In this document: positions 15,760 to 53,600 of the stretch, piece by piece | Layout of the letters: each line of letters opens with the position of its first letter | Position numbering within the stretch: the stretch's first letter is position 1 | NCBI GenBank assembly: GCA_029940695.1 | Contig: JAPYUP010000001.1 | Span: forward strand, 75,385 to 139,384 | DNA from: Candidatus Thalassarchaeaceae archaeon | Lineage (GTDB): Archaea; Thermoplasmatota; Poseidoniia; Poseidoniales; Thalassarchaeaceae | Length of the DNA: 64,000 nucleotides | Direction of reading: 5' to 3' | Position numbers and translations under genes: made by a program | Notes under the pieces: generated by a model | What the model was told of the DNA's origin: nothing | Databases searched by the model: none | What the model saw: only the letters and a program-made list of their open reading frames with translations

Positions 15760-16575
15760 CTATTCGGTTCCATCACCAGAGGTGGCGTCACTGACTTCCT
15801 TGTCTTGTAGCCAGCCCCTCTCTGCGGAGTAGTCACCTAACTGCTCCAGCCTTTTCAACCACCCCTTGGCTTCGGCAGTCTTGGTGGTCCTCACCAGCCA
15901 GACCCCGCCAAAGAGCGTGTCCCATAGTCCCATGTTATCCCTCTTGAAGCGGTAGAATAGGTAATCAATCATTGAAGGTAGAAGAAGAGCCAGCCCTATA
16001 CCTAGAAGAACCTGTCCGCTGGTTTCCCCGAGGTCCTGAATAGAAGTGGCGACCATGAGCAAGCCCAACAACACGACTACGAACGTCAGCCCCTTAATCA
16101 ATAGAAAGTAGGGGCTAGGCCGTACACCTTTGGAATTGACATAAGTTGTCCTGCTAATCCAGTTTCCTACAGTTCTGCCGGTCGACCGGGGCATAAAGCC
16201 CAAGTTGAACACCATCAAGAGCAAGCCGAGGATTATGAAATAGGTGAAATCTGCAAAGGCTCCCCAAGCGTTGATTACAAGAATTGGGATACACCACCCA
16301 AAAGAGACTGCGAAGTCCGAACCTCTGCGTATGAGGCGCTGACCGCTGGTTACCTCTTCGAACCCATCTGGTAGCGTCTTGACCTGCCTAGTTTTCCTCA
16401 CTCGTGGAGTGCGGGCCTTCCTTTCTCGTCTTCGAGATCGCGGCTTCTCCTTAGCGGCCTCTTGCACTGGCTCGGGTACAATGACTGTGGTTGGGGGGGG
16501 CGTGGGGGCGACTGGTAGTGGCTCCTGCATGCCCCCTCCAGATTGTATCTTGTCAGCCTTCTCCAGCAAGCCCAT
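15760..16575 (-). CDS. RDD-family integral membrane protein with a Pro/Lys/Arg-rich N-terminal tail
   Basis: RRGSDFAVSFGW and GRTVGNWISRTTYVNSKG match the conserved R..D and GqtlGk...V.dG blocks of RDD proteins. Three or four TM helices. Confidence 0.45.
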   Translation of the reverse strand: MGLLEKADKIQSGGGMQEPLPVAPTPPPTTVIVPEPVQEAAKEKPRSRRRERKARTPRVRKTRQVKTLPDGFEEVTSGQRLIRRGSDFAVSFGWCIPILVINAWGAFADFTYFIILGLLLMVFNLGFMPRSTGRTVGNWISRTTYVNSKGVRPSPYFLLIKGLTFVVVLLGLLMVATSIQDLGETSGQVLLGIGLALLLPSMIDYLFYRFKRDNMGLWDTLFGGVWLVRTTKTAEAKGWLKRLEQLGDYSAERGWLQDKEVSDATSGDGTE

Positions 16576-16578
16576 CTG

Positions 16579-17565
16579 TTAACCCCCATACCTTTCCGCT
16601 ACTCGTTTGTACAGTTCGAAATCGGGGGATTCTACAAAGTTGTGCATGACGGTATCGGGCAGATCGCCAAGGAGGTCGTTAATCATCCCGAAGAAGCGGA
16701 CGCGGGAATCGTCATCCGTATGCTGTGGATCCCTACCCACCTTCTGAAATAGAGCGAATGATTCTGATTCAATGAAGCTATTCGTGAAATCATCAGGCAT
16801 CTCGCCCAAGAGGCTGTTAATGACGACGAAGAATCGATGGAATTCCTCATCAGCAGATCTGAAGCTCTGAATCGCAACGACGAACTCGTCGAAGTCGAGC
16901 GTTCCAGAGTCATCGAGGTCGGCCTTGTCGAAAAAAGATTTGAGGGAATTGAGGTCCAAATTGTACAGTGTCTCGCTGGATATACCCGTGGCGTCGGAGA
17001 CCCTGACGACGAAATCCTCATCATCCATAGCTTCTAGGAATTCTGAGAAAGACATCTCGTTGCCCTCTTCGGGAACGGAAATCAACTCAACTGTCGGCTT
17101 GATGAAGCGCAAGTCGTGTTGCTCCTTCTTCCTCAGGATGATGATTTCTCGGTCCAGTTCAGAGCCGAATCGGTCAGAGAATCTATCCATCAGGCTGCCC
17201 GACTTGCCCGAAGCAATCCGATCTATTTGCCCGTACATACTGTCTCTAGATCCGGTGCCGATACTCGGGTCGGAAGTCTTCCTATTTTCCCAGACTGACT
17301 TGAAGTCCGAGGCCGAGTCCTGCTGATTGGGCATCGGAAGGTCGCCCAAGGAATTGGCTGCGTCAAGGAGATCCGCATCACCACTCAACTCCCGTGGAAA
17401 TCCAAACTGGGGGGGAGGGGAAGGAAGAGGAAAATCGAGCGGCGGGGGTGGCATCACCAATCCCTGAGGTGGTGGCGGCAATGTAGTATTGTCATCATCG
17501 AAGTCTGATTCAATGCTATCCAGAGCATCAACCATGCCATGCTTCCGAAGTCCTCCACTATTCAA
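16579..17565 (-). CDS. EF-hand-containing repeat protein with a Pro-rich N-terminus
   Basis: Canonical 12-residue EF-hand loop DLDDSGTLDFDE, flanked by the helices LKSFFDKA and FVVAIQSF. Internal ~40-aa duplication (FFVVINSLLGEMPDDFTNSFIESESFALFQKV versus FFGMINDLLGDLPDTVMHNFVESPDFELYKRV). Confidence 0.5.
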   Translation of the reverse strand: MNSGGLRKHGMVDALDSIESDFDDDNTTLPPPPQGLVMPPPPLDFPLPSPPPQFGFPRELSGDADLLDAANSLGDLPMPNQQDSASDFKSVWENRKTSDPSIGTGSRDSMYGQIDRIASGKSGSLMDRFSDRFGSELDREIIILRKKEQHDLRFIKPTVELISVPEEGNEMSFSEFLEAMDDEDFVVRVSDATGISSETLYNLDLNSLKSFFDKADLDDSGTLDFDEFVVAIQSFRSADEEFHRFFVVINSLLGEMPDDFTNSFIESESFALFQKVGRDPQHTDDDSRVRFFGMINDLLGDLPDTVMHNFVESPDFELYKRVAERYGG

Positions 17566-18809: not shown

Positions 18810-18936
18810 GGATTAGCAAGAGTCGGGTGGGACATAAGTTTTCAATCAGCCCAGTTGGAGTCCCGTGACTGGTTTTCCCTCGGTCGCTGGTGCTGCTCCC
18901 GTAGCCTCAACATAGGCCTCCCAGCAAACGTACTCG

Positions 18937-19989
18937 TTGTCCATTACGATTGCCTCAGCGAAAGTTAGGGCCCGTCCAGTGATAGCGCAAACCGGTCCGA
19001 GTTGTCCTGATGCGGTTGACAACTTGCTTGGGTCAGGCATGGCATTGCCTGCTACGCTTGATTTTTCATCCTTGCGAACCAAGTGTCCCCATGCAAACCC
19101 ATTTCAACTCAATGGCCGGCGAGGAACCGTGTCAGTTGAACCACTGCTAGTTAGAATAGGACATTCACCAGACCCTGATGACGCATTCATGTTCTTCGGA
19201 TTAACTTCAGGCGTGATAGAAACCCCAGGACGTGTGTACGAGCATTCCCTTGTCGACATAGACACCCTGAATATAGAGGCCCGAAAGAGCACCTACGAGG
19301 TCTCCGCAGTTAGCATTCGCTCGTTCCCAGATATCTCAGAGGAATACGCCCTGATGAACTGCGGTGCCTCTATGGGCGAGGGATACGGTCCGATGGTCAT
19401 CTCCAATATGCCAATGAGTGAGGAAGAGGCTAGCGAGAAGACAATTGCAATTCCTGGTTTCAGCACCAGTGCCTTCCTCACGCTGAGACTGGCATTAGGA
19501 GAGGTTAGTGTGGTCGAAGTTCCCTTCGACGAAATTCTCCCTGGTGTAATCCTTGGGAAGTACGACGTCGGTGTAATCATCCATGAAGGTCAGCTGACAT
19601 GGAAGGGTGACGGCGTGCATCTTGTTCTGGATCTTGGTATGTGGTGGAATCAAACAACGGGGCTGCCTTTACCACTTGGGGGGAACGTCGTCAGGAAGGA
19701 CCTAGGTGAAATAGTTTGCAGAGAAATCACAAGGGACGTCAGAGCGAGTATCAGACATGCACTGGATAACCCAGAGAAGGCTCTTGAGTTCGCACGTCAA
19801 TGGGGGAGGGGGATCGATGAGAGCACCAACGAAAAGTTCGTATCGATGTATGTGAACGAGCGTACAGTCGATTATGGACCAGAAGGCCGTGAGGCAATCA
19901 GGCTATTCTTGAAGAAAGGACAGGAAATCGGGCTTGTTAGGGGGGACATGGATGTGCGGGACATTCAATTCGTAGGGCATGATGATTAG
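18937..19989 (+). CDS. mqnD: MqnA/MqnD-family (VitK2 biosynthesis, PBP-like fold) protein, probably 1,4-dihydroxy-6-naphthoate synthase MqnD
   Basis: GHSPDPDDAFMFFGL N-terminal block and a periplasmic-binding-protein-like profile. Paralog of the mqnA ORF in the same cluster. The A/D assignment is tentative. Confidence 0.55.
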   Translation: MSITIASAKVRARPVIAQTGPSCPDAVDNLLGSGMALPATLDFSSLRTKCPHANPFQLNGRRGTVSVEPLLVRIGHSPDPDDAFMFFGLTSGVIETPGRVYEHSLVDIDTLNIEARKSTYEVSAVSIRSFPDISEEYALMNCGASMGEGYGPMVISNMPMSEEEASEKTIAIPGFSTSAFLTLRLALGEVSVVEVPFDEILPGVILGKYDVGVIIHEGQLTWKGDGVHLVLDLGMWWNQTTGLPLPLGGNVVRKDLGEIVCREITRDVRASIRHALDNPEKALEFARQWGRGIDESTNEKFVSMYVNERTVDYGPEGREAIRLFLKKGQEIGLVRGDMDVRDIQFVGHDD

Positions 19990-20437
19990 TATGGAAAGCG
20001 AACAACCAGACACTAGTGAGTTCGGCTCAGTCGACCCTGCCCCCCCTAGTGAGTCGGTTAGTATTGGTTCCTTGAGGGAAACCCTATGCAATGAAGAAGA
20101 GCGAATGTTCCTCAGGATGAGGGCTCTTTTTGCTTTGAGGAACATCGGTGAAATTGAGGCCATCAACTCTCTGGCGGCTGCGTTCAATTCCGCCTCTGCC
20201 CTGCTCAAGCACGAAATCGCCTACGTCATGGGTCAGATGCAAGATGGCCATGCAGTGCACCACCTGGTAGAGAGGCTGGAGGACGAGAACGAGGACGTAA
20301 TGGTCAGGCATGAGGCAGCAGAAGCCCTAGGCGCGATAGGGGACACTACGGCCTTGGCAACACTGGAGAGGTTCAGGTGCGATCCTGAGATAGTTGTAGC
20401 AGAATCCTGCGAGGTTGCCATCGACCTCCTCGAGTGA
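19979..20437 (+). CDS. Half-size deoxyhypusine hydroxylase (DOHH)-like HEAT-repeat protein: four HEAT repeats carrying two His-Glu metal motifs
   Basis: LLKHEIAYVMGQMQD and VMVRHEAAEALGAIGD reproduce the two HE motifs of one DOHH dyad. Flanking segments (RALFALRNIG..., DPEIVVAESCEVAIDLLE) align to eukaryotic DOHH halves as I remember them. 152 aa. Confidence 0.6.
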   Translation: MMISMESEQPDTSEFGSVDPAPPSESVSIGSLRETLCNEEERMFLRMRALFALRNIGEIEAINSLAAAFNSASALLKHEIAYVMGQMQDGHAVHHLVERLEDENEDVMVRHEAAEALGAIGDTTALATLERFRCDPEIVVAESCEVAIDLLE

Positions 20438-20465
20438 ATATCAGGCGAACGCTTTGATTACCCGG

Positions 20466-21263
20466 CTAGTCGAAGTTAAACCACGTTGGTTCTTCTTCCA
20501 TGCCACAAACTTCCCTGAGAAAATGTAACAAGCCGGAAATGCTGTTGTTATCTAGAACGTTACTGACCCCTCGCTCGAAGTAAGATTCCATCCTATCCCT
20601 GGTAAAACCGAGACTTTCAGATGCTGCGCCGATGACCGCTGCCCTGACTTTGGAGTCTCTCTCGAAAAGATAGTACTGTTCCACCATGTCATCATGAGCC
20701 TCCCTCACGAGTTCGATAGGTGAGTCTCTTCTAGCAGCGAAAACGCCAAACACCATGGGCAATCCCGTCAGATTTGTCCACTCAGCCCCTAAATCTAGTT
20801 TCACCAAATCTGGATTGCGGCTAGCAGCTGAAAGGGCTCGGTCACCAATGAGCAAAGCCCCGTCGCAATCGCTCAGCATCGTCTCTATATCTGGCCCCAT
20901 CTCAACCATTTTTGGATCCAAATTAATGCCTTGGAGGAGCCATTTGAGCAGAGATTGCGAGGTTGAAGAGTCGGATGGTAGTGCGATGTCCCTCATTGAT
21001 TCGATTGGCCTGCTGCCGAAGAGCAGAACAGAGCCAACGCTCCCCTTACTAACGATGCCAAGATCTGGTATCAGGTGCATCACATCGGCGTGCAAGGCGT
21101 AGTCTGCAGTGGGAATGGGGGCTGTCAGGCAGTCTCTCCTAAGGAGATGTCCAGTTAGCCATGCAGGAGGGGCAGGGAGAATTTTCCAACGGCTGCCTAG
21201 GGATGAAAACACGGGATCACAATTGACGAATGCGACCCGTCCTAGAACACGCCTCCACGACAT
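20466..21263 (-). CDS. mqnA: Chorismate dehydratase MqnA (futalosine pathway). Start placed at the internal Met (MSWRRVLGRVAF...) just after the stop of the upstream radical-SAM gene.
   Basis: RVAFVNCDPVF N-terminal motif, ALLIGDRAL, and LTGLPMVFGVFAARRD, all typical of MqnA. The full ORF in the track (to 21380) would overlap the upstream gene by 110 bp. Confidence 0.6.
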   Translation of the reverse strand: MSWRRVLGRVAFVNCDPVFSSLGSRWKILPAPPAWLTGHLLRRDCLTAPIPTADYALHADVMHLIPDLGIVSKGSVGSVLLFGSRPIESMRDIALPSDSSTSQSLLKWLLQGINLDPKMVEMGPDIETMLSDCDGALLIGDRALSAASRNPDLVKLDLGAEWTNLTGLPMVFGVFAARRDSPIELVREAHDDMVEQYYLFERDSKVRAAVIGAASESLGFTRDRMESYFERGVSNVLDNNSISGLLHFLREVCGMEEEPTWFNFD

Positions 21264-21270
21264 GAATCCA

Positions 21271-22584
21271 CTACACCTGACCAGCAATCGGAAGGGGGAG
21301 GGTGGTTCGACCAAGTCCATCGAAGACCTCGAAGGATGTGTACGTCGAGTTTCTCTTAATGGGGACAAGTCCGGAGGCAATCACCAACCGAGCGAGCTCC
21401 TCCCTACTGTAATCCAACCTAGTCGTGCTACCTGCATCATGCATAATTTCCTCGTGTCCCACTGTTCCATCGATATCGTCAGCACCTGAATTGATTGCAA
21501 TAGAAGCCACGTAATCACCTATGTTCATTCTGTACGCTTTGATGTGTGGAATGTTGTCCAACAGTATCCTAGATGTTGCAATCACCCTTATGATCTCGTT
21601 TGCTGAAGCCAGTTGGGCCTCAGGAAGACGAGTGTTATCGGGAAGATATGGGTACGGTACGAAGCACTGGAAACCACCGGAGCCATCCTGTTGCACCCTA
21701 AGACAATCGAGGTGTATCATACGTTCCTCGACGGTTTCTATAGTCCCGAACAGCATGGTGCAGTTAGTTGGGATCCCTATCGAATGGGCGGTTCCGTGAA
21801 TTCCCAAATACTCCTTCGAAAGTTCCTTTCCACGGCAGATTCGATCTCTGACCGAATCTACTAGGATCTCAGCCCCCCCTCCGGGCAACGAGCCCAACCC
21901 TGCGTCTTTCAGCAGTTCCAAAGTCTTCCTGATGGGCAACCCCGATCTCTTAGAGATGTGCTTAATCTCAACTGAGGTGAGTGCCTTTATGTGAATTTCT
22001 GGGAATCGCGCCTTTATTGATTGAAATAGATTGGTGTAGTGCTCCACTGTCCACTGAGGATGCAGGCCACCGACAGCGTGCACCTCACCGATGTAGTTGC
22101 CATAAGGCTCGATACGGGAAACGAATTCTTCTGACGAGAGTGCATAGGATTCACTATGTCGAGGGCCCTTTCTAAACGCGCAGAACCTACAGGCCAACGT
22201 GCAGATATTCGTGGTGTTCACATGCAGATTGTCATTGAAGAATACATGATTGCCGAACCTCGATCGCTTGATCATGTCGGCTAGAGCACAGAGTCCCGCA
22301 AGCGAATTGTGATTATGTAGTAATACACCCCCTTCTACTGTAATTCTATGACCATCAATAACTTTCCTCAATGTCCCACTGAGTAGTGAGTCACGTTGAA
22401 CAGCGATGGGAGGTACCATCTCGGAGAGCTTCAGTCTCCAGCCCGAATTTGCATATGGCTGAGAATCGGACATCGAATTTCGATGAAACGAGCGGTCAAT
22501 AGGATTTGAACCCACGTTAGACAGAGGCATCGCGATGTAGAGTAGTTGAAAACTATCAATAGCCCGCATCACATCATCAATCAT
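21271..22584 (-). CDS. Radical SAM enzyme of the MqnC/MqnE (CofH-like) family, i.e. cyclic dehypoxanthine futalosine synthase or aminofutalosine synthase. The N-terminal ~70 aa may not be translated.
   Basis: CxxxCxxC cluster CTLACRFC in the NTTNICTLACRFCAFRKG context typical of MqnC/MqnE. Adjacent to mqnA. Confidence 0.65.
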   Translation of the reverse strand: MIDDVMRAIDSFQLLYIAMPLSNVGSNPIDRSFHRNSMSDSQPYANSGWRLKLSEMVPPIAVQRDSLLSGTLRKVIDGHRITVEGGVLLHNHNSLAGLCALADMIKRSRFGNHVFFNDNLHVNTTNICTLACRFCAFRKGPRHSESYALSSEEFVSRIEPYGNYIGEVHAVGGLHPQWTVEHYTNLFQSIKARFPEIHIKALTSVEIKHISKRSGLPIRKTLELLKDAGLGSLPGGGAEILVDSVRDRICRGKELSKEYLGIHGTAHSIGIPTNCTMLFGTIETVEERMIHLDCLRVQQDGSGGFQCFVPYPYLPDNTRLPEAQLASANEIIRVIATSRILLDNIPHIKAYRMNIGDYVASIAINSGADDIDGTVGHEEIMHDAGSTTRLDYSREELARLVIASGLVPIKRNSTYTSFEVFDGLGRTTLPLPIAGQV

Positions 22585-36219: not shown

Positions 36220-37491
36220 ATGGGCTTCCGTCAAATGCTACAGGGCGTCCAAGTTGTGGATGAACTCGTCAGCGTGCGTCACGAAATGCTCGAGCTCTCA
36301 ATGGCATCCGAGCACCGCCCCTTGCTTCTAACTAATGTAAAAGAGTCACCAGGACATCGTGCAGCGCTCAACATCATTGACAGGGACAGGCTCTGCGAAT
36401 CCTTCGGAGTGAAACCTGGGGAGTTGATTGATATCCTCGCCTGGGCGATGAATAACCCCTCTGAACCAGTTCTGGTTGGCGCTCCGGGGGCACCTGTTCT
36501 AGAGAACACCATGGAAAAGGTTGACCTTTCGACTCTACCCATCCCATGGCACTATCCGGAAGACGGTGGGAGATACCAGTCAGCATCGGTGATTATCGCC
36601 CAGTACGGTGGTACAAGGAACGCATCGTTCCACAGACAACTTCTCAGGGATGCGACACATACAGTTTCTAGATTCGTGCCCCGTCACCTCCGTACCATGG
36701 CTGACAACGCAATTGAGTCTGGCGACGAGATTCCGATTGCCGTTGTGAACGGCCCTGATCCAGTGGTACTTCTTGCCGGTGCCATGTCATTCGACGAACC
36801 ACTCGACGAGCTAAGGGTCGCGGCTGCCCTTCATGAGAGATTATACGACGAGCCACTTAGAATTGTGGAGCTCTCAAACGGTGTGGCTGTTCCCGCAGAC
36901 TCAGAGTATGCCATGGAGGCCCGGATAACCCTGCAGACCGATCGGGAGGGACCCTATGTCGACATCACAGGAACGGTGGATGGCGTAAGACTAGAGCCAG
37001 TCATTGAATACGATGCAATCCATCACCGGGACTCTCCGGTCTTCCACGCCCTTATTCCCGCGGGATTGGAGCACAAGACCCTCATGGGATTGCCTAGGGC
37101 ACCTACTATCAAAGCGGCCGTGTCAGAGGTTGTGACCTGTACTGATGTCTACCTTACTGAAGGGGGCTGCGGATGGCTCTCTTCCGTAGTACAAATAGTG
37201 CCAACGCAAAAGAGTGACGGGGTCAAGGCCATCCATGCTGCCCTCGATGGGCATAGGTCGATGAAGCAGGTGATTGTCGTCGATGATGACATCGATGTCA
37301 CCGATCCTGCTCGTGTCGAATGGGCCTTGATGACTCGGTGGCAACCCGACGTTGACACAGTGATACTCTCCAGTCAGAAGGGCTCTAGTCTCGACCCCAG
37401 CCGTGACAAAGACGGGACGACGAGTAAAATTGGCATGGATGCGACATTAGATTCCTCTATCGATCGCTCGGCCTTCGAGTCGGTGCTGTGA
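36220..37491 (+). CDS. UbiD-family (prenyl-FMN-dependent) decarboxylase. It could be the futalosine-pathway decarboxylase (MqnL-like) or the archaeal anhydromevalonate-phosphate decarboxylase. The sequence alone does not resolve which.
   Basis: 423 aa. UbiD-like N-terminal and central blocks (…PLLLTNVKESPG…, …GRYQSASVIIAQYGGTRNASFHRQLL…). Confidence 0.6.
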   Translation: MGFRQMLQGVQVVDELVSVRHEMLELSMASEHRPLLLTNVKESPGHRAALNIIDRDRLCESFGVKPGELIDILAWAMNNPSEPVLVGAPGAPVLENTMEKVDLSTLPIPWHYPEDGGRYQSASVIIAQYGGTRNASFHRQLLRDATHTVSRFVPRHLRTMADNAIESGDEIPIAVVNGPDPVVLLAGAMSFDEPLDELRVAAALHERLYDEPLRIVELSNGVAVPADSEYAMEARITLQTDREGPYVDITGTVDGVRLEPVIEYDAIHHRDSPVFHALIPAGLEHKTLMGLPRAPTIKAAVSEVVTCTDVYLTEGGCGWLSSVVQIVPTQKSDGVKAIHAALDGHRSMKQVIVVDDDIDVTDPARVEWALMTRWQPDVDTVILSSQKGSSLDPSRDKDGTTSKIGMDATLDSSIDRSAFESVL

Positions 37492-43569: not shown

Positions 43570-44316
43570 TCAGGACAGTTTACCTAAGTGCTTGAGAGTA
43601 GTCTCCATGTCCATCTTGCTGTAGCCGTCCTTGTCAACTGAGGCGATTTCGACAGTTTCTGGGTTAAGGTCATCCTCAAGGGACTCTCGCAGTGCCTCTA
43701 GTCCGAGTTTGATAGCGGCGTTCTTCGTCATTCCAGCCTTCCACTTGCCCTCGAAGTGATCGATCACTGATGAGCGGCCACGGCCAATCGCGCCTGCATG
43801 GTACGACTGGTATGCACCAGAGGGATCGGTCTCGTAAAGATGGACTCCCTCTTCGTCCATTCCTGCGATTAGCAAGGCGGTTCCGAACGGCCTGGCCCCA
43901 CCGTACTGAGTGAAGGACTGCTTGTAGTCGCACATCTTCTTGACAAGTGTGGAGACCGGAATGGCATCACCGTAGGTCATACGATTAATCTGGCATTGTG
44001 CCCGTGCTCTGTCGACGAGTTGGCGAGCGTCGGCAACGAGGCCCGAGGTGGTGATGCCGATGTGGTTATCAATCTGGTACATCTTCTCTATGGAGTCCGT
44101 GATGACGAGCTTGCTCTGAATCCTCTTGTCGACGATAAGGACCACGCCGTCCTTGTAGATTAGTCCAACAGTAGTGGTGCCCCTCTTTACAGACTCTCTC
44201 GCATACTCAACCTGATAGAGCCTGCCATCTGGGGAGAATGTCGACACTCCATGATCGTAACCTCGTCCGCTGGGTTGCATCTGAATCGGCCTCATGCCTG
44301 AATGGACTCTTATCAA
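43570..44316 (-). CDS. psmA: Proteasome alpha subunit
   Basis: YDHGVSTFSPDGRLYQVEYA signature and GTTTVGL. 248 aa. Confidence 0.9.
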   Translation of the reverse strand: MIRVHSGMRPIQMQPSGRGYDHGVSTFSPDGRLYQVEYARESVKRGTTTVGLIYKDGVVLIVDKRIQSKLVITDSIEKMYQIDNHIGITTSGLVADARQLVDRARAQCQINRMTYGDAIPVSTLVKKMCDYKQSFTQYGGARPFGTALLIAGMDEEGVHLYETDPSGAYQSYHAGAIGRGRSSVIDHFEGKWKAGMTKNAAIKLGLEALRESLEDDLNPETVEIASVDKDGYSKMDMETTLKHLGKLS

Positions 44317-44378
44317 TCTTGGTCGAGAGGAAACTCAGTCAGGGTGCCATTCATGGTGGTGCAGCTACTAGGCGGGCC

Positions 44379-45134
44379 ATGAAGGTAGCAGTGCTGGCAT
44401 CGGGGGGGAAGGATTCCTCCTACGCAGCCTGGTGGGCTACATTGCAGGGATGGGAAATTGTGGCTCTTGTGACTGTGGGGGTCCAAGGCAGCGACTCGAT
44501 GATGTTCCAGACGCAGAACACTGCAATAGCAGGGCTCCAAGCGGCCTCAATGGGGGTTCCGTGGCTGCCGATTACCACTAATGGAGAGGAGAAACAGGAG
44601 ATGCTGGACCTAGAGCAGGGGCTGTCTGGTTCCAGCTCGGTCGAAGATTCATTCCAGATCATGTGGCCAAAGTCATTCACACGTCCCGATTGCTTGGAGT
44701 TGCACGACGGTTTGGTTGATATTGACGGTTTAGTGGTTGGCGCACTCCGTTCCGACTACCAAAAAACCAACATCGAGATGATGTGCGAGAGACTGGGGAT
44801 TTCATCATTCTGCCCCCTTTGGCATCATAGTCCACAGAGTCACATGAGATCACTCTTGGACCATGGCTTCGTCGTCAGATTCATCTCTATTTCGTGCGAG
44901 GGCCTGGATGAGAGTTGGCTCGGCGTAGCCCTGACTGATCAAACCCTGAGGGATCTGGAAGACCTAGCTAGAGAGTTTCGCTTCAACCTCGACGGAGAGG
45001 GTGGTGAGTTCGAGACGATTGTTTCCTATGGACCGCACCTCAAGCGGGAAATATCCTGTGACGGTGTTTCGTGTTGGGAAGGTAGCAGGGGCATTTGGGT
45101 CATACGTTCTTGCAGTCTAAGCGAGCATCGTTAG
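44379..45134 (+). CDS. dph6: Diphthine-ammonia ligase Dph6-like PP-loop ATPase (DUF71/MJ0570 family). Start taken at MKVAVLASGGKDS.
   Basis: PP-loop SGGKDS and the GEGGEFETIV motif characteristic of DUF71/Dph6 proteins. Confidence 0.6.
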   Translation: MKVAVLASGGKDSSYAAWWATLQGWEIVALVTVGVQGSDSMMFQTQNTAIAGLQAASMGVPWLPITTNGEEKQEMLDLEQGLSGSSSVEDSFQIMWPKSFTRPDCLELHDGLVDIDGLVVGALRSDYQKTNIEMMCERLGISSFCPLWHHSPQSHMRSLLDHGFVVRFISISCEGLDESWLGVALTDQTLRDLEDLAREFRFNLDGEGGEFETIVSYGPHLKREISCDGVSCWEGSRGIWVIRSCSLSEHR

Positions 45135-47181: not shown

Positions 47182-48450
47182 CTAGTGGATGGAGCCAAGG
47201 GAAATGGGGCGGGCCAGATGACGGCGGTTCGAGGCTGTCGGCTCCACCCAAGCACCAGAGACTGGAGAATGCTGGAGATCTGGGCGACGGCTCGTCCACG
47301 CCTTCTTCTCAGTACTACCGCAGGTTCTGCATCTGAGACCTTGGTTCCTTCCTGCGCTCCTCATAGTATTGGAACAGCAAATCGGCCTACTAACTATCCT
47401 TGGAGTGGGGCTGTCTAAGCATAGTTTCTCCAGGTGAATCGAACCATCGGGGGAGGTTAGTCCCATCCAACTCACGACGTCACCCGGCGACAATCTTCTC
47501 AGCAGCCTGTTGACCGGCCCGCCCTCGGAGAATGCTACCAAAGTGACAGACCTGGAGCCAGAGAATGCGACCAAGTGTGAATGCCCGCCCTTGGTCTCCT
47601 TTGGCCCGGACACAATCGTACCGGTCATCGTAGATGCGATGTGGTCGTCCGAAAGTTGGTTTGTCCTGTGTGCTGCATGTTCGGCGCATCTCTCGACGTC
47701 TCCTCTGCTCTGTAGCCATTCGTGAGCCTGGGAGACTGCTTGTGAGGTGGCACCTCTGATGCCATAGAGCACGGGGCATGGCGTCCTTGGGGCAATCATC
47801 CCTCTGCCCTTGGTGGGGTCCCTGTTGACGAAGGTCTCAGGGTGGAACTCCTCGAGCGCGGAGATGGCTCGATGAGCTACCTCTCTCCTGGTTCCGACCA
47901 AGGATGGTTCTCTCCATGCAATTAATTCCCATGAGGATGAGGGTTTTGGAATCCAGGAAATCGCAGCGCTCGCTCCCACCACCCCCCAGGACGGCATGGA
48001 TGAAAGTACAATGCAGCCATGATCGGTCACTTCTCTAAGTCGAGAATGGGCATCGACGTGCCCCCGTACCGCAGACCAATACCACTCATTAGGAGTGGAC
48101 GTGGGCGAGATAACCATGCATGGGGAGGAAGTATATTTCGTCGGAGGGAACTTCTTTGCGTCGGAAAGCAGAACCTCGAACCATTCACGGCAGATGGAAA
48201 ACAGCGCCTCGCAGTCGTCACTCATTATGTCGATTACCGCGCCCAGTGCCCCGTTGCCCCTGGTCCTCCTCTCAGCGAACGGCCAGAGTCGCACCAGCCT
48301 CCTCTCCACCACCTCAACGTCAAGATTACTTCGAATGGTACGAATGAGATTATCCATCCGCTCAGTGGTGCAACCAACTTCGGGATGATCTGTGTCGTCT
48401 AACCCAATCCTGATCAAACGGGTTGAGGGATCCTTACTCATTCCCATCAC
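47182..48450 (-). CDS. tiaS: tRNA(Ile2) 2-agmatinylcytidine synthetase TiaS
   Basis: N-terminal IRIGLDDTDHPEVGCTT matches the TiaS kinase-like domain (IGIDDTDS..GMCTT). C-terminal Zn ribbon CCSNT...CRTCG. 422 aa. Confidence 0.65.
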   Translation of the reverse strand: MMGMSKDPSTRLIRIGLDDTDHPEVGCTTERMDNLIRTIRSNLDVEVVERRLVRLWPFAERRTRGNGALGAVIDIMSDDCEALFSICREWFEVLLSDAKKFPPTKYTSSPCMVISPTSTPNEWYWSAVRGHVDAHSRLREVTDHGCIVLSSMPSWGVVGASAAISWIPKPSSSWELIAWREPSLVGTRREVAHRAISALEEFHPETFVNRDPTKGRGMIAPRTPCPVLYGIRGATSQAVSQAHEWLQSRGDVERCAEHAAHRTNQLSDDHIASTMTGTIVSGPKETKGGHSHLVAFSGSRSVTLVAFSEGGPVNRLLRRLSPGDVVSWMGLTSPDGSIHLEKLCLDSPTPRIVSRPICCSNTMRSAGRNQGLRCRTCGSTEKKAWTSRRPDLQHSPVSGAWVEPTASNRRHLARPISLGSIH

Positions 48451-49709: not shown

Positions 49710-50693
49710 ATGGAGGACCCAATAGGGGCGGTAGTCAGCTCGCTCGCCTCTTCACTAGGCATTGCTGAGGTGACGATACAACTCATTATCGGCACCGTTG
49801 GGCTGGTGCTGCTCGGAATAGGCTTCCACCGGAGCGCGGAATCATATGCAGATCGCGCCGCCATCGCCGGATGGCCCTTGATTGGCCTGTTCTTCTACCT
49901 CTACTCTGATCACTATGTGGAGATCGCGGACCCGGTTCTGATTCTCATGACGGCTGGGGCGCTACCTGCTGGTATTGGAGTGTCACTATGGGAAGCGAAG
50001 GGCGAGACCGTTCACTCAGGAACCTTGCATTGGCTAAGGGGGTGTGTGGTGTGGTCAATGCTGCCATACTATGTCATTTACAACATTCCCCAACTCAATA
50101 TGGGCTTCGTGTACGTTACTGCACTGAGTGCAGGGTGGATGTTGGAGTTCTCTGGAATAGGGGGCTATGAGGTAGGGGGCATGATGATAGAAAGGTTTGG
50201 CGAGGCTCCCATTCCCGTCTCGGATTGGGCAGGTAACAGATGGATCCTCAGCGAACCCCTTGGGGAGATTGGTTTCTTCGTCTCGATGAACAATAGTGAG
50301 GGTGTGACCGTAGTCGCCTTCATCTTAGCGTGCTCTGCCTTGCAGTCCATGGCCGTATTCATTGGGGCGATTGTGGCTCTAAGCTCTGTTCACTGGAAGA
50401 GAAGGGTGCGAGCGCTACTCATCGCACTGCCCACTATCCACGTCCTAAACGTTTTCAGGAACGCGGGGATAGTTTGGCTTACAGACACTTACCCGAGTTG
50501 GTCCTTCTTCGGGATTGGGATGTTTGACTTTACCCACAGCTATGCCGCCAAGTTCGCTAGCCTATTCGCAATGTTTCTGATGGCAATCGCTCTGTTTGAC
50601 CTGCTGCCAGAGCTCCACAGACACATAATGAAAGTGTTGAACCCATTGATGGTTGCTTTGGGATCCAAACCAGCTTCATCAGACCATCCGTGA
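49710..50693 (+). CDS. Archaeosortase/exosortase-family polytopic membrane protein
   Basis: Multiple TM helices. LACSALQS matches the exosortase ACSG(L/I)RS Cys motif. HVLNVFRNAG supplies the conserved Asn/Arg. 327 aa. Confidence 0.5.
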   Translation: MEDPIGAVVSSLASSLGIAEVTIQLIIGTVGLVLLGIGFHRSAESYADRAAIAGWPLIGLFFYLYSDHYVEIADPVLILMTAGALPAGIGVSLWEAKGETVHSGTLHWLRGCVVWSMLPYYVIYNIPQLNMGFVYVTALSAGWMLEFSGIGGYEVGGMMIERFGEAPIPVSDWAGNRWILSEPLGEIGFFVSMNNSEGVTVVAFILACSALQSMAVFIGAIVALSSVHWKRRVRALLIALPTIHVLNVFRNAGIVWLTDTYPSWSFFGIGMFDFTHSYAAKFASLFAMFLMAIALFDLLPELHRHIMKVLNPLMVALGSKPASSDHP

Positions 50694-53600
50694 TCTGATT
50701 CTCTCGTATAGCTTGCCAGTCAGCGGCATGTCATGCTCCCAAGCGAATTCCTTCATCACCCGCACGGCCTCCTTCTCGAGGTCGGAATCACCCACGAAAT
50801 CTGTGATTTCTATCGTGTCTTTCCTCGTGTTTGCCTTGAAAGCAGCGATTGGCTCCTCCTTGTGAAACACGAGGTAGGCTGAGCCGTAGCCGAACCGCTC
50901 CCTGAGCACACTCCCAAAGTAGTGAATCAGCGGGTCTGAAGGTGGAATGACAAGGTCCCTCGATCTAGAGATGGTGTCTAGGCCCTCGAGCATGTCCTGG
51001 CGCCCCCAGCAGATGTCCTGCAGGTCATCGACTAGGAACCCCTTGATCAGTGTACCATCCTCCTCGAACTCGTGCATCACGTCACTGATTTCCTCTGGGG
51101 AGAACGAAGAACCTGCCAAACGCTCTAATTGCTTCAGCGTGATGACAGGGTAGTTTTGGACTAGTTCCCTGAGATAGTCTCTCTTGATTCCCCACAAGTC
51201 AGCGTTCGATATCGGTTCGACGGTCTTGAAACCGCCCCTGTAGTCTTGAATCAGGTGACCGCTCCTGACTAGGGGCGATACGAGTTTGCGGAAGTTGGAT
51301 CTACTCATGGCATTGCGTTCCATGTAGACATCGGGGTCATTGTGCTCTCTGAAGAACTGTAGAATCTCCTCATCCTCGGCCTCGATAGGTACGTTCCTGA
51401 TGGTTAGCAGATTCTGGAAGTGTCGATATCGAGCCCAAACCAGGTGTCCTCTGAGGTTGGAGCCCTGGTGCAACTGGTGCGCAGCGACCATCGAACTCAG
51501 GTTGACTCTGAACATCTCACAACGGCCCCTTAGGGAGAAGTCGTCACGAAGCTCGCTGGTGTTCTCCAATGCTATTGTCTCGTTTTCCCACCTGCTATCC
51601 TGATGTAGCGAATGGTGAAGGAATAGCATTCTATTGACTTGCTTCCTTGTTCTAGGCGCAACCACACCGCCCCTGATATACCTCTCACCATCACCCATCG
51701 AGACGAAACCGAGATTGGAGAGGATTAACTGGATGTTTTCGTCGCAGTCGTGAACGGGAACGCCGTTGAAGGCATGCAGAACTGAGACATCGACCAAGCG
51801 ATCACGATAGTTCTCGAGCAGCTCCTCGAAAGCGGTCTTGAAATCGTCTAGGTAGGAGTGGGGGATGTTGATGTCCTTGATCTCCAGGTAGTCGTTGACT
51901 ACGAACATCAAGATTCTACCAATTGGATCCACCCCCTTGAAGACCGGGTAGTACCATCCTTGTTTGAGCAGGAGGCGAATCTCCTGGATGAATCTGCTAC
52001 TGAACGGATCGGACTGGGACAGGATTCTCATCTTCCTGTCTTCAGGAAGGGGGGACAGTAGGCGTTCGGCGTCCTCAGGCGATGCGTAGTAGTCCGTTGG
52101 GTCAGGTTGGAGTGTTACAACTCTAGCTATCGTCCCCTCCCTCTCCAGTTCCCTCAGAGCATCGGCCAACTCCTCGACGGGACGGGCCACGAAGAAGCGC
52201 AGGGTATGAATCCGCACCGGTCCGATACGTGCAATGAGATGTGACAAGGCCTCATGGAATGGCAATGGTTCGATTCGGCCGTGCAAGCGTCTGAAAATGG
52301 CCATTGAGCGTTTCCTGTTCGGTATGTCGATGTACTGCTTGACGACTGCCAGTTGACGCTCCAGATTGGAAAGGGCTGACTTAAGGCTCCTCTGGACGTG
52401 GGCGTTTTCCTTCCCCCTAGGATAGTCTGCGAACAACTCCGAGCGTGAAGTTCCCTCCTCGGTTATCTTGTCGAGGAGTTCTTCCTCAAGTGGACCTAGC
52501 CACGGATCGCTCCTTAGCCCGAGAAGCATTGGAAGTTGATTGCCGAGTGTGTAGCCAACGCGGTTGTGTAGAAGCCTGCCGTTGAAGATGTCCGAGTCGT
52601 GCTTGATGTCCTTCCAGTCACGGAATCGGAAGTTTGTCACTCTGTGCAGCAACTCCTCCCTTCGTTGGACGAGGGCAAGATTCCGAATTGCGTCTACGGG
52701 TTCGTCGAAGGTCGCGAATGATTTGTGGAGAATGAGGGTCTGGAGAGTCCGATAGTCGATGACATTGACTTGGCCGCCAGTAATTCGGTACTCATCGACC
52801 CTGAGAATGAACTCGCCCTCGTCAGTCTGAGTGAAGAAGCCGATTGAGGCTAGGTTGCGCATCTCAAGCTCTTGCAACACGGCATCTACTTGAGCTGAGG
52901 GGAAGGGGAGCCTCAAACTGAGGGCCTCGGCGGTTTGCGGGCCCTCAGAGCCAAGCATGTCGAGCAGCTTGAGGCGTAGGCAATCCATTGGGTCAGAGAG
53001 GGATTTCTTCCTCCAGCTGGAGGGATTCCCACCAACAAAAGACATCCCCATCTCGTAGCTCAGGCCCCCGGTGTAGAGCGCTCTCAAGTCATCCATCTCC
53101 GTGGCTCCAGCAATCGCTAAGCATCCCAGCGTCCCATGGACCTCGGCCATTCTCATCGAGAACCACTTGTCATCGATCTTCTCGTGGCCTGTGCCGCGAA
53201 CCTTGGTAATCAGTTCGCGTTCGGCGAGCTCATGAACCCAACCACGAAGCGTATCGTGATCTATTGCCTTTAGCTTCTCGCTGTACAGTGGGTGCGTTAG
53301 CTTGCTCTCCAGACCGCCGCCCATGTCCATGAGTCTGAGGAGTTCGTTGGCATTGGTCGGTACTACAACCTTGGACTGGTAGTAATCCCACAATCGGGCC
53401 TCGTCCAGATCGGTAGCAAGGGAACGCGCGCCGAGAAGGCGACGTAGGATTTCAGGATCTACGTCCTTGATTAAGTAAGCACGTGTCCTGAGAGAGAGCA
53501 AGTCCTCGAATGAGGACATGAAGAGAGTCATTCCCAGTGGAGAGGGTATCTTGACCCTGCGGTGAACGATTCGGACGTCCTCGCTGTCCATCCTGTTGAT

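What the first reader, a model, noticed from the sequence alone, without database searches (positions are those of the whole stretch)
19979..20437. Half-size DOHH-like diiron HEAT-repeat protein embedded in the futalosine gene cluster
This 152-aa ORF carries two near-perfect copies of the deoxyhypusine hydroxylase HE-motif HEAT repeats (LLKHEIAYVMGQMQD and VMVRHEAAEALGAIGD). Its flanks align with one dyad of eukaryotic DOHH. DOHH is normally a ~300-aa protein built from two such dyads, with a 4-His/2-Glu diiron site, and it is generally regarded as eukaryotic. No DOHH homolog is known for archaea that make hypusine. A single-dyad protein would have to homodimerise to rebuild the diiron centre. 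Here it sits between mqnD-like and mqnA, so the substrate may not be eIF5A. It could instead hydroxylate a naphthoquinone intermediate.
Basis: partly seen in the sequence, partly recalled or inferred. Interest (0 to 1): 0.8.

Follow-up and report, generated by a model that had tools for sequence, protein, structure and literature searches.

The report
Half-size archaeal deoxyhypusine hydroxylase homologue
A marine planktonic archaeon (Marine Group II) encodes a conserved protein that is one half of the two-iron enzyme eukaryotes use to finish the hypusine modification of translation factor 5A, an enzyme the literature says archaea lack.

Summary
ORF 19979-20437 (152 aa) matches human deoxyhypusine hydroxylase (DOHH, PDB 4D4Z) at E=2e-68. 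It aligns separately to each half of that enzyme at 48% and 51% identity. Natural PBS-lyase HEAT proteins score only 21-39 bits. Both His-Glu motifs and the substrate-binding Glu and Gly are present.

The family is always single-dyad (about 157-177 aa). It occurs in at least 79 species-level Poseidoniales genomes, and every one named to family is Thalassarchaeaceae (MGIIb). The metal ligands are invariant, and dN/dS is about 0.05.

Profiles of eukaryotic N-halves and C-halves score it equally (155 vs 158 bits), so it is an undifferentiated dyad and not a recently truncated C-half. A head-to-tail tandem model superimposes on 4D4Z at 1.2 Å.

The most likely function is a homodimeric diiron hydroxylase acting on deoxyhypusinated aIF5A. 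The mqnD/mqnA neighbourhood is conserved but is part of family-wide synteny, so a naphthoquinone substrate is not favoured.

The window's own allele carries a TGG>TGA stop that removes the conserved C-tail and a G58E change. A sister allele carries a frameshift. This species may therefore be losing the gene.

No paper found in the searched library reports an archaeal DOHH. JGI auto-annotation already uses the name.

The parts
19979..20437 (+). Single-dyad (four HEAT hairpins) DOHH homologue, 152 aa, including the TGA stop
   Evidence: ORF. 4d4z at E=2.3e-68. Pfam HEAT_PBS and HEAT_2. Orthologues in 88 loci.
20006..20044 (+). N-terminal tail motif PDTSEFGSVDPAP (residues 10-22), equivalent to the inter-dyad linker YLSVDPAPP of human DOHH
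   Evidence: Aligned to 4d4z chain residues about 149-157. P10, S13, F15 and S17-P22 are invariant in 80 orthologues. It is ordered (pLDDT 92-98) only when it acts as the linker in the tandem model.
20201..20245 (+). His-Glu motif 1, LLKHEIAYVMGQMQD. H78 is equivalent to human H56/H207 (iron ligand). E79 is equivalent to E57/E208 and G85 to G63/G214 (substrate binding).
   Evidence: Residue roles from PMC9117371.
20297..20344 (+). His-Glu motif 2, VMVRHEAAEALGAIGD. H111-E112 are equivalent to human H89-E90 and H240-E241 (iron ligands).
   Evidence: Residue roles from PMC9117371.
20435..20437 (+). Premature TGA replacing the conserved Trp codon (TGG) of the C-terminal tail
   Evidence: DNA alignment with alleles 99% identical that carry TGG. 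165-aa allele P0435 and 162-aa relatives. This was the only tail-less sequence among 120 relatives.
20438..20479 (+). Vestigial tail codons ISGERFDYPASRS plus TAA, no longer translated in this allele. They overlap the 3' end of mqnA.
20248..20249 (+). Site (CC in GGCC, codon 90) where a sister allele has a 1-nt deletion that splits the gene into 94-aa and 74-aa ORFs
   Evidence: Seen in L091, L092, L093 and L094, from four independent samples.
18937..19989 (+). MqnD-like gene (1,4-dihydroxy-6-naphthoate synthase family). Its stop overlaps the start of the DOHH-half gene. The true start is probably downstream of the TTG listed.
   Evidence: Pfam VitK2_biosynth at 1.5e-66. 3a3u and 1zbm. It abuts the DOHH-half gene in 86 of 88 loci. 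Relatives are 285-336 aa.
20466..21380 (-). MqnA-like gene (chorismate dehydratase), convergent with the DOHH-half gene
   Evidence: Pfam VitK2_biosynth. 7ahr and 2nxo at 1e-20.
21271..22584 (-). MqnE/MqnC-type radical SAM enzyme of the futalosine route
   Evidence: TIGR03700 at 380 bits (cut-off 434) and TIGR03699 at 323 bits (cut-off 428).

Best explanation
The gene encodes a single-dyad orthologue of deoxyhypusine hydroxylase.

Proposed mechanism:
- Two identical subunits pair about a two-fold axis and rebuild the eight-HEAT, V-shaped architecture that eukaryotic DOHH forms from one chain.
- Each subunit supplies His78 and His111-Glu112. Together these give the 4-His/2-Glu site for two irons.
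- The diiron centre binds O2 as a peroxo-diiron(III) species.
- Glu79, Glu112 and Gly85 of each subunit hold the deoxyhypusine side chain of archaeal IF5A, made beforehand by deoxyhypusine synthase. C2 of that side chain is hydroxylated to give hypusine.
- The invariant N-terminal tail (SVDPAP) probably crosses onto the partner subunit, as the inter-dyad linker does in the human enzyme.

Shown here: homology, motif and ligand conservation, single-dyad length in every orthologue, purifying selection, and compatibility with the DOHH fold.

Inferred, not shown: dimerisation, iron binding, aIF5A as the substrate, and O2 dependence.

In the species of this window the gene looks dispensable. This allele has lost the C-terminal tail and carries G58E, and a sister allele is frameshifted. 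That is consistent with yeast, where only deoxyhypusine synthase is essential and deoxyhypusine-modified eIF5A is functional (PMC5178350).
For: Specific homology:
- 4d4z scores E=2.3e-68, with each half matched at 107-124 bits.
- Identity to the human N-half is 48% and to the C-half 51%. The two human halves are only 40% identical to each other.
- In a library of 1.84 billion representatives, the nearest non-MGII relatives are proteins of about 300 aa with two matched stretches. The named ones are eukaryotic DOHH.

Active site:
- H78, E79, G85, Q86, H111 and E112 are invariant in 80 distinct orthologues and in eukaryotic halves.
- Their roles in iron and deoxyhypusine binding are documented for the human enzyme (PMC9117371).

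A real, selected gene:
- Median dN/dS is 0.051 over 66 pairs.
- 65 of 152 positions are invariant.

Single dyad, one copy per locus:
- All 88 loci carry one ORF of 157-177 aa measured stop to stop (one is 234 aa), and none has two dyads.
- The 80 best genome hits come from 79 genomes.

Fold:
- The tandem query+query model has pLDDT 94.6 and pTM 0.89.
- It superimposes on 4d4z_A at TM 0.88/0.93 and rmsd 1.2 Å over 275 columns. The next hits have TM of 0.42 or less.

Ecology (own knowledge): MGII are aerobic surface-ocean heterotrophs, which is compatible with an O2-dependent enzyme.
Against: - No biochemical data exist for this protein.
- The dimer is inferred. The tandem model was built with an alignment of full-length eukaryotic DOHH, so it is essentially a homology model and not independent evidence.
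- aIF5A and deoxyhypusine synthase genes were not found in the 64-kb window. Their presence in the genome rests on the literature statement that all archaea have DHS (PMC5178350).
- The gene is always translationally coupled to mqnD, which could hint at another role.
- A more divergent second paralogue forming a heterodimer cannot be excluded, because only the best 80 of 408 genome hits were visible.
- In this species the gene carries damaging alleles, so the window's copy may be non-functional.
Confidence: 0.65

Rival explanations
1. It is a diiron HEAT-repeat oxygenase recruited to another substrate and linked to the futalosine/menaquinone genes. For example, it might hydroxylate a naphthoquinone or a precursor, or modify a protein of that pathway.
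For: - Its start abuts or overlaps the stop of mqnD in 86 of 88 loci.
- mqnA and a MqnE/C radical SAM gene lie just downstream.
- The coupling to mqnD survives in the divergent P0199 lineage, even though a WD40 gene has been inserted downstream there.
Against: - Identity to eukaryotic DOHH is 48-51%. The deoxyhypusine-binding residues (E79, E112, G85) are invariant (PMC9117371).
- All the loci belong to one archaeal order. The whole region of about 15 kb, including primase, transketolase and tRNA synthetases, is collinear, so adjacency is not independent evidence.
- To my knowledge the described futalosine pathway needs no hydroxylase, and its clusters in other organisms carry no such gene. 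I did not test this here.
Confidence: 0.12
2. It is a remnant of a eukaryotic DOHH gene acquired by horizontal transfer and cut down to one dyad. It would now be a non-catalytic HEAT scaffold or, in this window, a decaying pseudogene.
For: - The visible distribution is narrow (Poseidoniales only), while all other close relatives are eukaryotic.
- The N-terminal tail and C-terminal tail correspond to the linker and C-terminus of the eukaryotic C-half.
- The window's species carries a nonsense allele, a frameshift allele and G58E.
Against: - Across the family the gene is under strong purifying selection, with dN/dS 0.05 and all metal ligands invariant. It is therefore neither a pseudogene nor a ligand-free scaffold in general.
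- It is not C-half-like in its core. Held-out C-halves score 30 bits higher on the C-profile than on the N-profile, whereas the archaeal proteins differ by only 2.7±2.1 bits.
- At 14 sites where the N and C consensus differ, it has the N state at 10 and the C state at 4.
- No viral copies that could act as a vector were found.
Confidence: 0.13
3. It is a generic PBS-lyase-type HEAT repeat protein (CpcE/NblB/YibA-like) that only resembles DOHH through shared repeat consensus.
For: Pfam assigns only HEAT_PBS and HEAT_2. The NCBI name is 'HEAT repeat domain-containing protein'. Synthetic consensus alphaRep proteins score well.
Against: - DOHH halves score 107-124 bits each. CpcE scores 21 bits and MTH187 24 bits.
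- NblB and CpcE equivalog models score 39 and 26 bits against cut-offs of 300 and 330.
- The His-Glu pairs, which generic repeats lack, are invariant.
- Only 4d4z matches the two-dyad model (TM 0.88); CpcE reaches TM 0.29.
Confidence: 0.02

Closest known systems
Eukaryotic deoxyhypusine hydroxylase (human DOHH, PDB 4D4Z; yeast Lia1)
   Same: - HEAT-hairpin fold.
- His-Glu motifs in the same repeats, with equivalents of H56/H89/E90 (iron) and E57/G63 (deoxyhypusine).
- 48-51% identity to each human half.
- The linker motif SVDPAPP and the C-terminal W/Y...Y tail are shared.
- A tandem model superimposes at 1.2 Å.
   Different: - One dyad (about 160 aa) instead of two (about 300 aa), so two chains are needed for one diiron site.
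- The host is an archaeon.
- The sequence is neither N-type nor C-type.
- The gene sits in a menaquinone gene neighbourhood.
- Activity is untested.
PBS-lyase HEAT-like repeat proteins (CpcE/CpcF, NblB, E. coli YibA, MTH187)
   Same: Same Pfam repeat families, HEAT_PBS and HEAT_2. Prokaryotic hosts.
   Different: No conserved His-Glu metal motifs. Only 21-39 bits of similarity. TM of 0.35 or less to the two-dyad model.
Other enzymes whose internally duplicated form has a homodimeric half-size relative (general evolutionary pattern; comparison from my own knowledge)
   Same: A pseudo-symmetric two-domain enzyme alongside a symmetric homodimer of single domains.
   Different: For DOHH, no paper found in the searched library describes a half-size form.

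Membership tests
Deoxyhypusine hydroxylase (DOHH) | HEAT-repeat alpha-helical hairpin fold | tested here: met
   Pfam HEAT_PBS and HEAT_2. The model has eight helices per copy at pLDDT above 94. The top structural match is 4d4z.
Deoxyhypusine hydroxylase (DOHH) | Eight HEAT repeats in one chain, arranged as two symmetrical four-repeat domains (PMC3306375, PMC9117371) | tested here: not met
   Only one four-repeat dyad is present. The protein is 152 aa here, and the ORF is 157-177 aa stop to stop in 87 of 88 related loci. None has two dyads.
Deoxyhypusine hydroxylase (DOHH) | Strictly conserved His-Glu motifs at the positions of H56-E57 and H89-E90 (and H207-E208, H240-E241) | tested here: met
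   H78-E79 and H111-E112 align to both pairs. They are invariant in 80 orthologues. There are two per chain, so four only in a dimer.
Deoxyhypusine hydroxylase (DOHH) | Residues that bind the deoxyhypusine side chain (E57/E208, E90/E241 and the Gly seven residues after the first His; PMC9117371) | tested here: met
   E79, E112 and G85 are present and invariant.
Deoxyhypusine hydroxylase (DOHH) | Closer in sequence to DOHH than to any other HEAT family | tested here: met
   Eukaryotic N-half and C-half profiles give 155 and 158 bits, as high as for genuine halves.
Deoxyhypusine hydroxylase (DOHH) | Two irons per active enzyme; O2-dependent hydroxylation of eIF5A/aIF5A-deoxyhypusine | not testable with these tools
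   Needs purified protein and an assay.
Deoxyhypusine hydroxylase (DOHH) | The substrate pathway (IF5A and deoxyhypusine synthase) is present in the same organism | not tested
   Neither gene is in the 64-kb window. The literature says DHS is in all archaeal genomes (PMC5178350).
Futalosine (Mqn) menaquinone pathway | Homology to a described Mqn enzyme, or a required reaction step | tested here: not met
   There is no similarity to any Mqn family. To my knowledge the described pathway has no hydroxylase step.
Futalosine (Mqn) menaquinone pathway | Conserved linkage to mqn genes across unrelated lineages | tested here: inconclusive
   Linkage holds in 86 of 88 loci, but all are Poseidoniales and the whole region is syntenic.
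PBS-lyase HEAT proteins (CpcE, NblB) | Score above the NCBIfam equivalog cut-off | tested here: not met
   NblB scores 39 against 300, CpcE 26 against 330 and CpeY 16 against 600.

The most novel reading that the evidence does not exclude
The MGIIb protein is a surviving representative of the pre-duplication form of DOHH. On this reading the enzyme arose in archaea as a homodimeric single dyad, and the eukaryotic enzyme is its tandem duplication and fusion. MGIIb archaea would then make true hypusine with a canonical diiron DOHH, which would be the first archaeal lineage with an identified hydroxylase.

Three results are consistent with this:
- N-half and C-half profiles score the protein equally.
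- It has no third state at any of 14 sites that discriminate N from C.
- It lies closer to both halves than they lie to each other (Kimura distances 0.99 and 0.90 against 1.20).

Three points count against it or leave it open:
- The neighbour-joining placement is unstable.
- The visible distribution is one archaeal order only.
- An ancient transfer from a stem eukaryote, followed by re-symmetrisation, is not excluded.
Probability: 0.3. Interest if true: 0.85.

Novelty: new variant of a known kind. Interest (0 to 1): 0.7.

Why it matters
Reviews and primary papers state that archaea have deoxyhypusine synthase but no DOHH orthologue, even though some archaea contain hypusine (PMC3306375, PMC5178350, PMC8153317).

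This family is a clear DOHH homologue in an abundant group of ocean archaea, so that statement needs qualifying. It does not explain hypusine in Crenarchaeota.

The family offers three things:
- A minimal, symmetric version of a diiron enzyme whose peroxo intermediate is unusually stable.
- A direct test of whether one dyad is the catalytic building block.
- A concrete candidate for the ancestral state of a eukaryotic signature enzyme.

It also makes a prediction that can be checked in existing marine metaproteomes: MGIIb aIF5A should carry hypusine, not only deoxyhypusine.

Tried and rejected
1. A single-sequence AlphaFold model of the 152-aa protein was useless (pLDDT 50).
It was redone with the doubled query plus 78 eukaryotic DOHH sequences.
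3. The Biopython bootstrap run timed out and was replaced by my own neighbour-joining code. Placement of the archaeal clade stayed unresolved. It fell exactly between the N and C clades in 25 of 200 replicates, next to a large N group in 74, and next to five or fewer C sequences in 47.
4. The genome-contig scan found 408 relatives, but only the best 80 are shown, and all are Poseidoniales. I therefore could not establish presence or absence in MGIIa, MGIII, Asgard or bacteria. A second homologue search from the most divergent member (P0199) again returned only half-size MGII-type proteins and eukaryotic DOHH.
5. The afdb50 fold library was unavailable.
6. Viral collections hold no relative.
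7. I looked for aIF5A and DHS in the window using a GKHG motif and Pfam scans of 20 ORFs. None was found.
8. The 106-124-aa cluster members that begin at Met43 or Met47 first looked like N-terminal truncations. For the 110-aa form (P0423) this is only a gene-caller start choice, because the DNA is identical to the window. The other lengths were not checked at DNA level.
9. Literature searches for DOHH together with archaea, MGII, Asgard, Thermoplasmatota or K06072 found no report of an archaeal DOHH. The original DOHH cloning paper (PMC1324997) is not held.
Full report
**1. The observation**

ORF 19979-20437 (+) is present and encodes 152 aa. It contains LLKHEIAYVMGQMQD at residues 75-89 and VMVRHEAAEALGAIGD at residues 107-122.

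Pfam sees only generic repeat families: HEAT_PBS at 5.8e-15 and HEAT_2 at 1.7e-12. A sequence search of all PDB chains puts human deoxyhypusine hydroxylase (4d4z) first, at E=2.3e-68. The match is double:
- Query 29-152 aligns to the N-terminal dyad at 106.8 bits.
- Query 8-152 aligns to the linker plus the C-terminal dyad at 124.3 bits.

Natural HEAT_PBS proteins are far behind. MTH187 scores 24 bits and CpcE 21 bits. The NCBIfam models NblB and CpcE score 39 and 26 bits against cut-offs of 300 and 330.

Over the same 124 columns the protein is 48% identical to the human N-half and 51% to the C-half. The two human halves are 40% identical to each other. For scale, a paper reports that Leishmania and human DOHH are 40.6% identical (PMC3306375).

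**2. Organism and neighbours**

The window carries archaeal housekeeping genes: primase small subunit, ribosomal protein L37ae, prefoldin, Kae1, PAN-type ATPase, TiaS, diphthamide synthase and a split transketolase.

Every named close homologue is from Candidatus Thalassarchaeaceae, Thalassarchaeum, Poseidoniales or 'Marine Group II'.

The gene upstream, whose stop overlaps the start of this ORF, matches MqnD (3a3u, 1zbm). The convergent gene downstream matches MqnA chorismate dehydratase (7ahr). Next comes a MqnE/MqnC-type radical SAM gene.

**3. The family**

- A search of 5.8 billion clustered proteins gave 1807 hits. The best 120 are all 151-173 aa and 71-99% identical.
- In a library of 1.84 billion representatives read exhaustively, the best 150 contain only two half-size clusters: P0129 at 72% identity and P0199 at 62%. 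Both are Thalassarchaeaceae.
- The other 148 are proteins of about 300 aa with two matched stretches, or giant multi-HEAT proteins. The named 300-aa proteins are eukaryotic DOHH from Geosiphon, Cucumis and insects. One unnamed example lies on a compact eukaryotic contig next to cyclin and eIF5 genes.
- A scan of one genome for each of 185,579 prokaryotic species found 408 relatives. The 80 shown are all Poseidoniales MAGs or SAGs, from 79 genomes.
- In all 88 loci that carry the motif there is exactly one ORF, 157-177 aa stop to stop (one is 234 aa). None has two dyads.
- Among 80 distinct orthologues, 65 of 152 positions are invariant. These include H78, E79, G85, Q86, H111 and E112, and the N-terminal tail P10, S13, F15 and S17-V-D-P-A-P22.
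- Median dN/dS over the core is 0.051.

The second refutation criterion, loss of the His-Glu pairs in orthologues, is therefore not met either. JGI's pipeline already labels these proteins 'deoxyhypusine monooxygenase', while NCBI calls them 'HEAT repeat domain-containing protein'.

**4. Active-site equivalence**

For human DOHH the literature gives these roles (PMC9117371):
[quoted passage not shown] - E57, E90, E208 and E241, plus a glycine in each half, bind the deoxyhypusine side chain.

The PDB chain numbering is offset by five from native numbering, as I read it. With that offset, H78-E79 aligns with H56-E57 and H207-E208. H111-E112 aligns with H89-E90 and H240-E241. G85 aligns with the glycine seven residues after the first His (G214 in the C-half).

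One chain thus supplies half of the ligand set. A dimer would supply four His and two Glu for iron, plus two more Glu and two Gly for the substrate.

**5. Can two copies form the enzyme?**

The N-terminal 28 residues of the protein correspond to the inter-dyad linker of human DOHH: FGSVDPAPP here against YLSVDPAPP in human. A head-to-tail concatenation of two copies therefore reproduces the topology of the eukaryotic enzyme.

- AlphaFold2 on this tandem, with an alignment of 78 eukaryotic DOHH sequences, gave pLDDT 94.6 and pTM 0.89.
- The first tail is disordered (pLDDT about 60). The second tail, acting as the linker, is ordered (pLDDT 92-98).
- Foldseek places 4d4z_A first, at TM 0.88/0.93 and rmsd 1.2 Å over 275 columns. 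All other proteins have TM of 0.42 or less.

This shows compatibility, so the third refutation criterion is not met. It is homology-driven, however. Dimerisation remains an inference.

**6. Truncated eukaryotic C-half, or undifferentiated dyad?**

The N-terminal tail and the C-terminal tail (LLEW-x5-[LF]-x-Y) resemble the linker and C-terminus of the eukaryotic C-half. N-halves also end in LEW-like sequence before the linker.

The core tells a different story.
- I built profiles from half of the eukaryotic N-halves and C-halves and scored held-out sequences:

| Held-out set | N-profile (bits) | C-profile (bits) | C minus N |
|---|---|---|---|
| N-halves | 139.5 | 115.6 | -23.9 ± 7.4 |
| C-halves | 131.3 | 161.2 | +29.9 ± 6.9 |
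| 80 archaeal proteins | 155.2 | 157.9 | +2.7 ± 2.1 |

- At 14 sites where the N and C consensus residues differ, the archaeal consensus has the N state at 10 and the C state at 4. It never has a third state. At 43 sites where N and C agree, it agrees at 42.
- Mean Kimura distances are 0.99 (archaeal to N), 0.90 (archaeal to C) and 1.20 (N to C).
- In the neighbour-joining tree the archaeal clade is monophyletic in 198 of 200 replicates. It attaches on the branch between all N-halves and all C-halves. Bootstrap placement around that node is unstable.

The protein is therefore not a recent truncation of a crown-eukaryote C-half. It looks like the undifferentiated dyad. Whether it is a relic of the pre-duplication gene, or an old transfer that re-symmetrised under homodimer constraints, is open. 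The visible distribution, one archaeal order, argues for caution. No viral intermediates were found.

**7. The menaquinone neighbourhood**

The gene abuts mqnD in 86 of 88 loci. This includes the divergent P0199 lineage, where a 786-aa WD40 gene has been inserted between it and mqnA. That suggests co-transcription.

All these genomes belong to one order, though. The entire block is collinear: MetRS, CNNM, two unknown genes, primase, a small ORF, mqnD, the DOHH-half gene, mqnA, the radical SAM gene, transketolase and ProRS. The linkage therefore carries little functional information.

The substrate-binding residues are conserved, and to my knowledge the futalosine route has no hydroxylation step. 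I rate a quinone-related substrate as possible but unlikely, at about 0.12.

**8. The window's own allele**

The window ends the protein at TGA (20435-20437). Alleles 99% identical at the DNA level, and all 162-aa relatives, have TGG (Trp) there, followed by ISGERFDYPASRS. This was the only tail-less form among 120 relatives. The window allele also has Glu at position 58, where 80 other species have Gly.

A sister allele was found in four independent samples (JGI, ENA and two Logan runs). It keeps TGG and Gly58 but has a 1-nt deletion at codon 90 (window 20248/9). That splits the gene into 94-aa and 74-aa ORFs between the two His-Glu motifs.

Other close variants carry G85S, G118C or E79D. An intact-length allele, P0435 at 165 aa, also exists.

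In this species the gene therefore seems to be under relaxed selection or in the process of being lost. This fits an accessory role for the hydroxylation step. In yeast only DHS is essential, and deoxyhypusine-modified eIF5A is functional (PMC5178350).

**9. What is known**

Papers from 2012, 2016 and 2021 state that no DOHH orthologue has been found in archaea (PMC3306375, PMC5178350, PMC8153317). Nine full-text searches found no paper reporting an archaeal DOHH, or linking DOHH to Marine Group II, Poseidoniales, Thermoplasmatota or Asgard archaea. The library does not cover most subscription journals, so this is absence in the searched set only. Automated annotation (JGI) has already transferred the name.

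**10. Verdict**

The core interpretation, a half-size DOHH-like diiron HEAT protein that must pair to work, is supported as far as sequence analysis can go. The alternative-substrate speculation is not favoured.

I classify it as a new variant of a known kind: a single-dyad archaeal DOHH. Confidence in the DOHH-homodimer mechanism is about 0.65, and interest is about 0.7.

Noticed in passing
window 20435-20479 and 20248-20249; loci L091-L098: Three alleles of the gene coexist at 99% or higher DNA identity. One is intact (P0435, 165 aa). One has a TGG>TGA nonsense that removes the tail; this is the window, and also L095 (DNA checked; L096-L098 encode the same 110-aa call). One has a -1 frameshift at codon 90 that splits the gene, found in L091-L094 from four independent samples. 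Point variants at otherwise invariant residues were also seen: G58E in the window, G85S, G118C and E79D.
   Followed up: yes
L007 8542-10902 and L009 3135-5495: In the divergent P0199 lineage of MGIIb, a 786-aa multi-WD40 beta-propeller gene is inserted between the DOHH-half gene and mqnA. Its Pfam hits are eukaryote-type WD40 families.
   Followed up: no
window 21271-22584 (-): The radical SAM gene next to mqnA scores below the equivalog cut-offs of both MqnE (380 against 434 bits) and MqnC (323 against 428 bits). Which futalosine step it performs is therefore unclear, and no second such gene was seen nearby. The listed ORF start overlaps mqnA by about 110 nt and is probably too far upstream.
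   Followed up: partly
window 18846-19082 (-): A small ORF (78 aa as listed; 64 aa in relatives) lies between the primase gene and mqnD. It is called at the same position in all related contigs inspected and has no Pfam hit.
   Followed up: no
window 15760-17565 (-): Two conserved genes of unknown function sit between the CNNM transporter gene and the primase gene. One is a 271-aa membrane protein with a faint RDD hit. The other is a 328-aa, very acidic, proline-rich protein with weak EF-hand/EH hits in relatives.
   Followed up: no
window 36220-37491 (+): A UbiD-family decarboxylase lies 16 kb from the mqn genes. It might be the late-step decarboxylase of the futalosine route. The flanking genes are ribosomal S12/S7 and a TPR protein.
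   Followed up: no
window 50679-55976 (-): A very long ORF (1765 aa) that I did not examine.
   Followed up: no
window 18937-19989 (+): The mqnD-like ORF as listed (TTG start, 350 aa) is 14-65 aa longer than the calls in relatives (285-336 aa), and the Pfam match begins at residue 73. The real start is probably internal.
   Followed up: partly
window 44238-45134 (+) and 47182-48450 (-): Two other translation-apparatus modification genes lie in the same window: a diphthamide synthase family gene (EF2 modification) and TiaS (tRNA-Ile2 agmatidine synthetase). There is no evident link to the DOHH-half gene.
   Followed up: no
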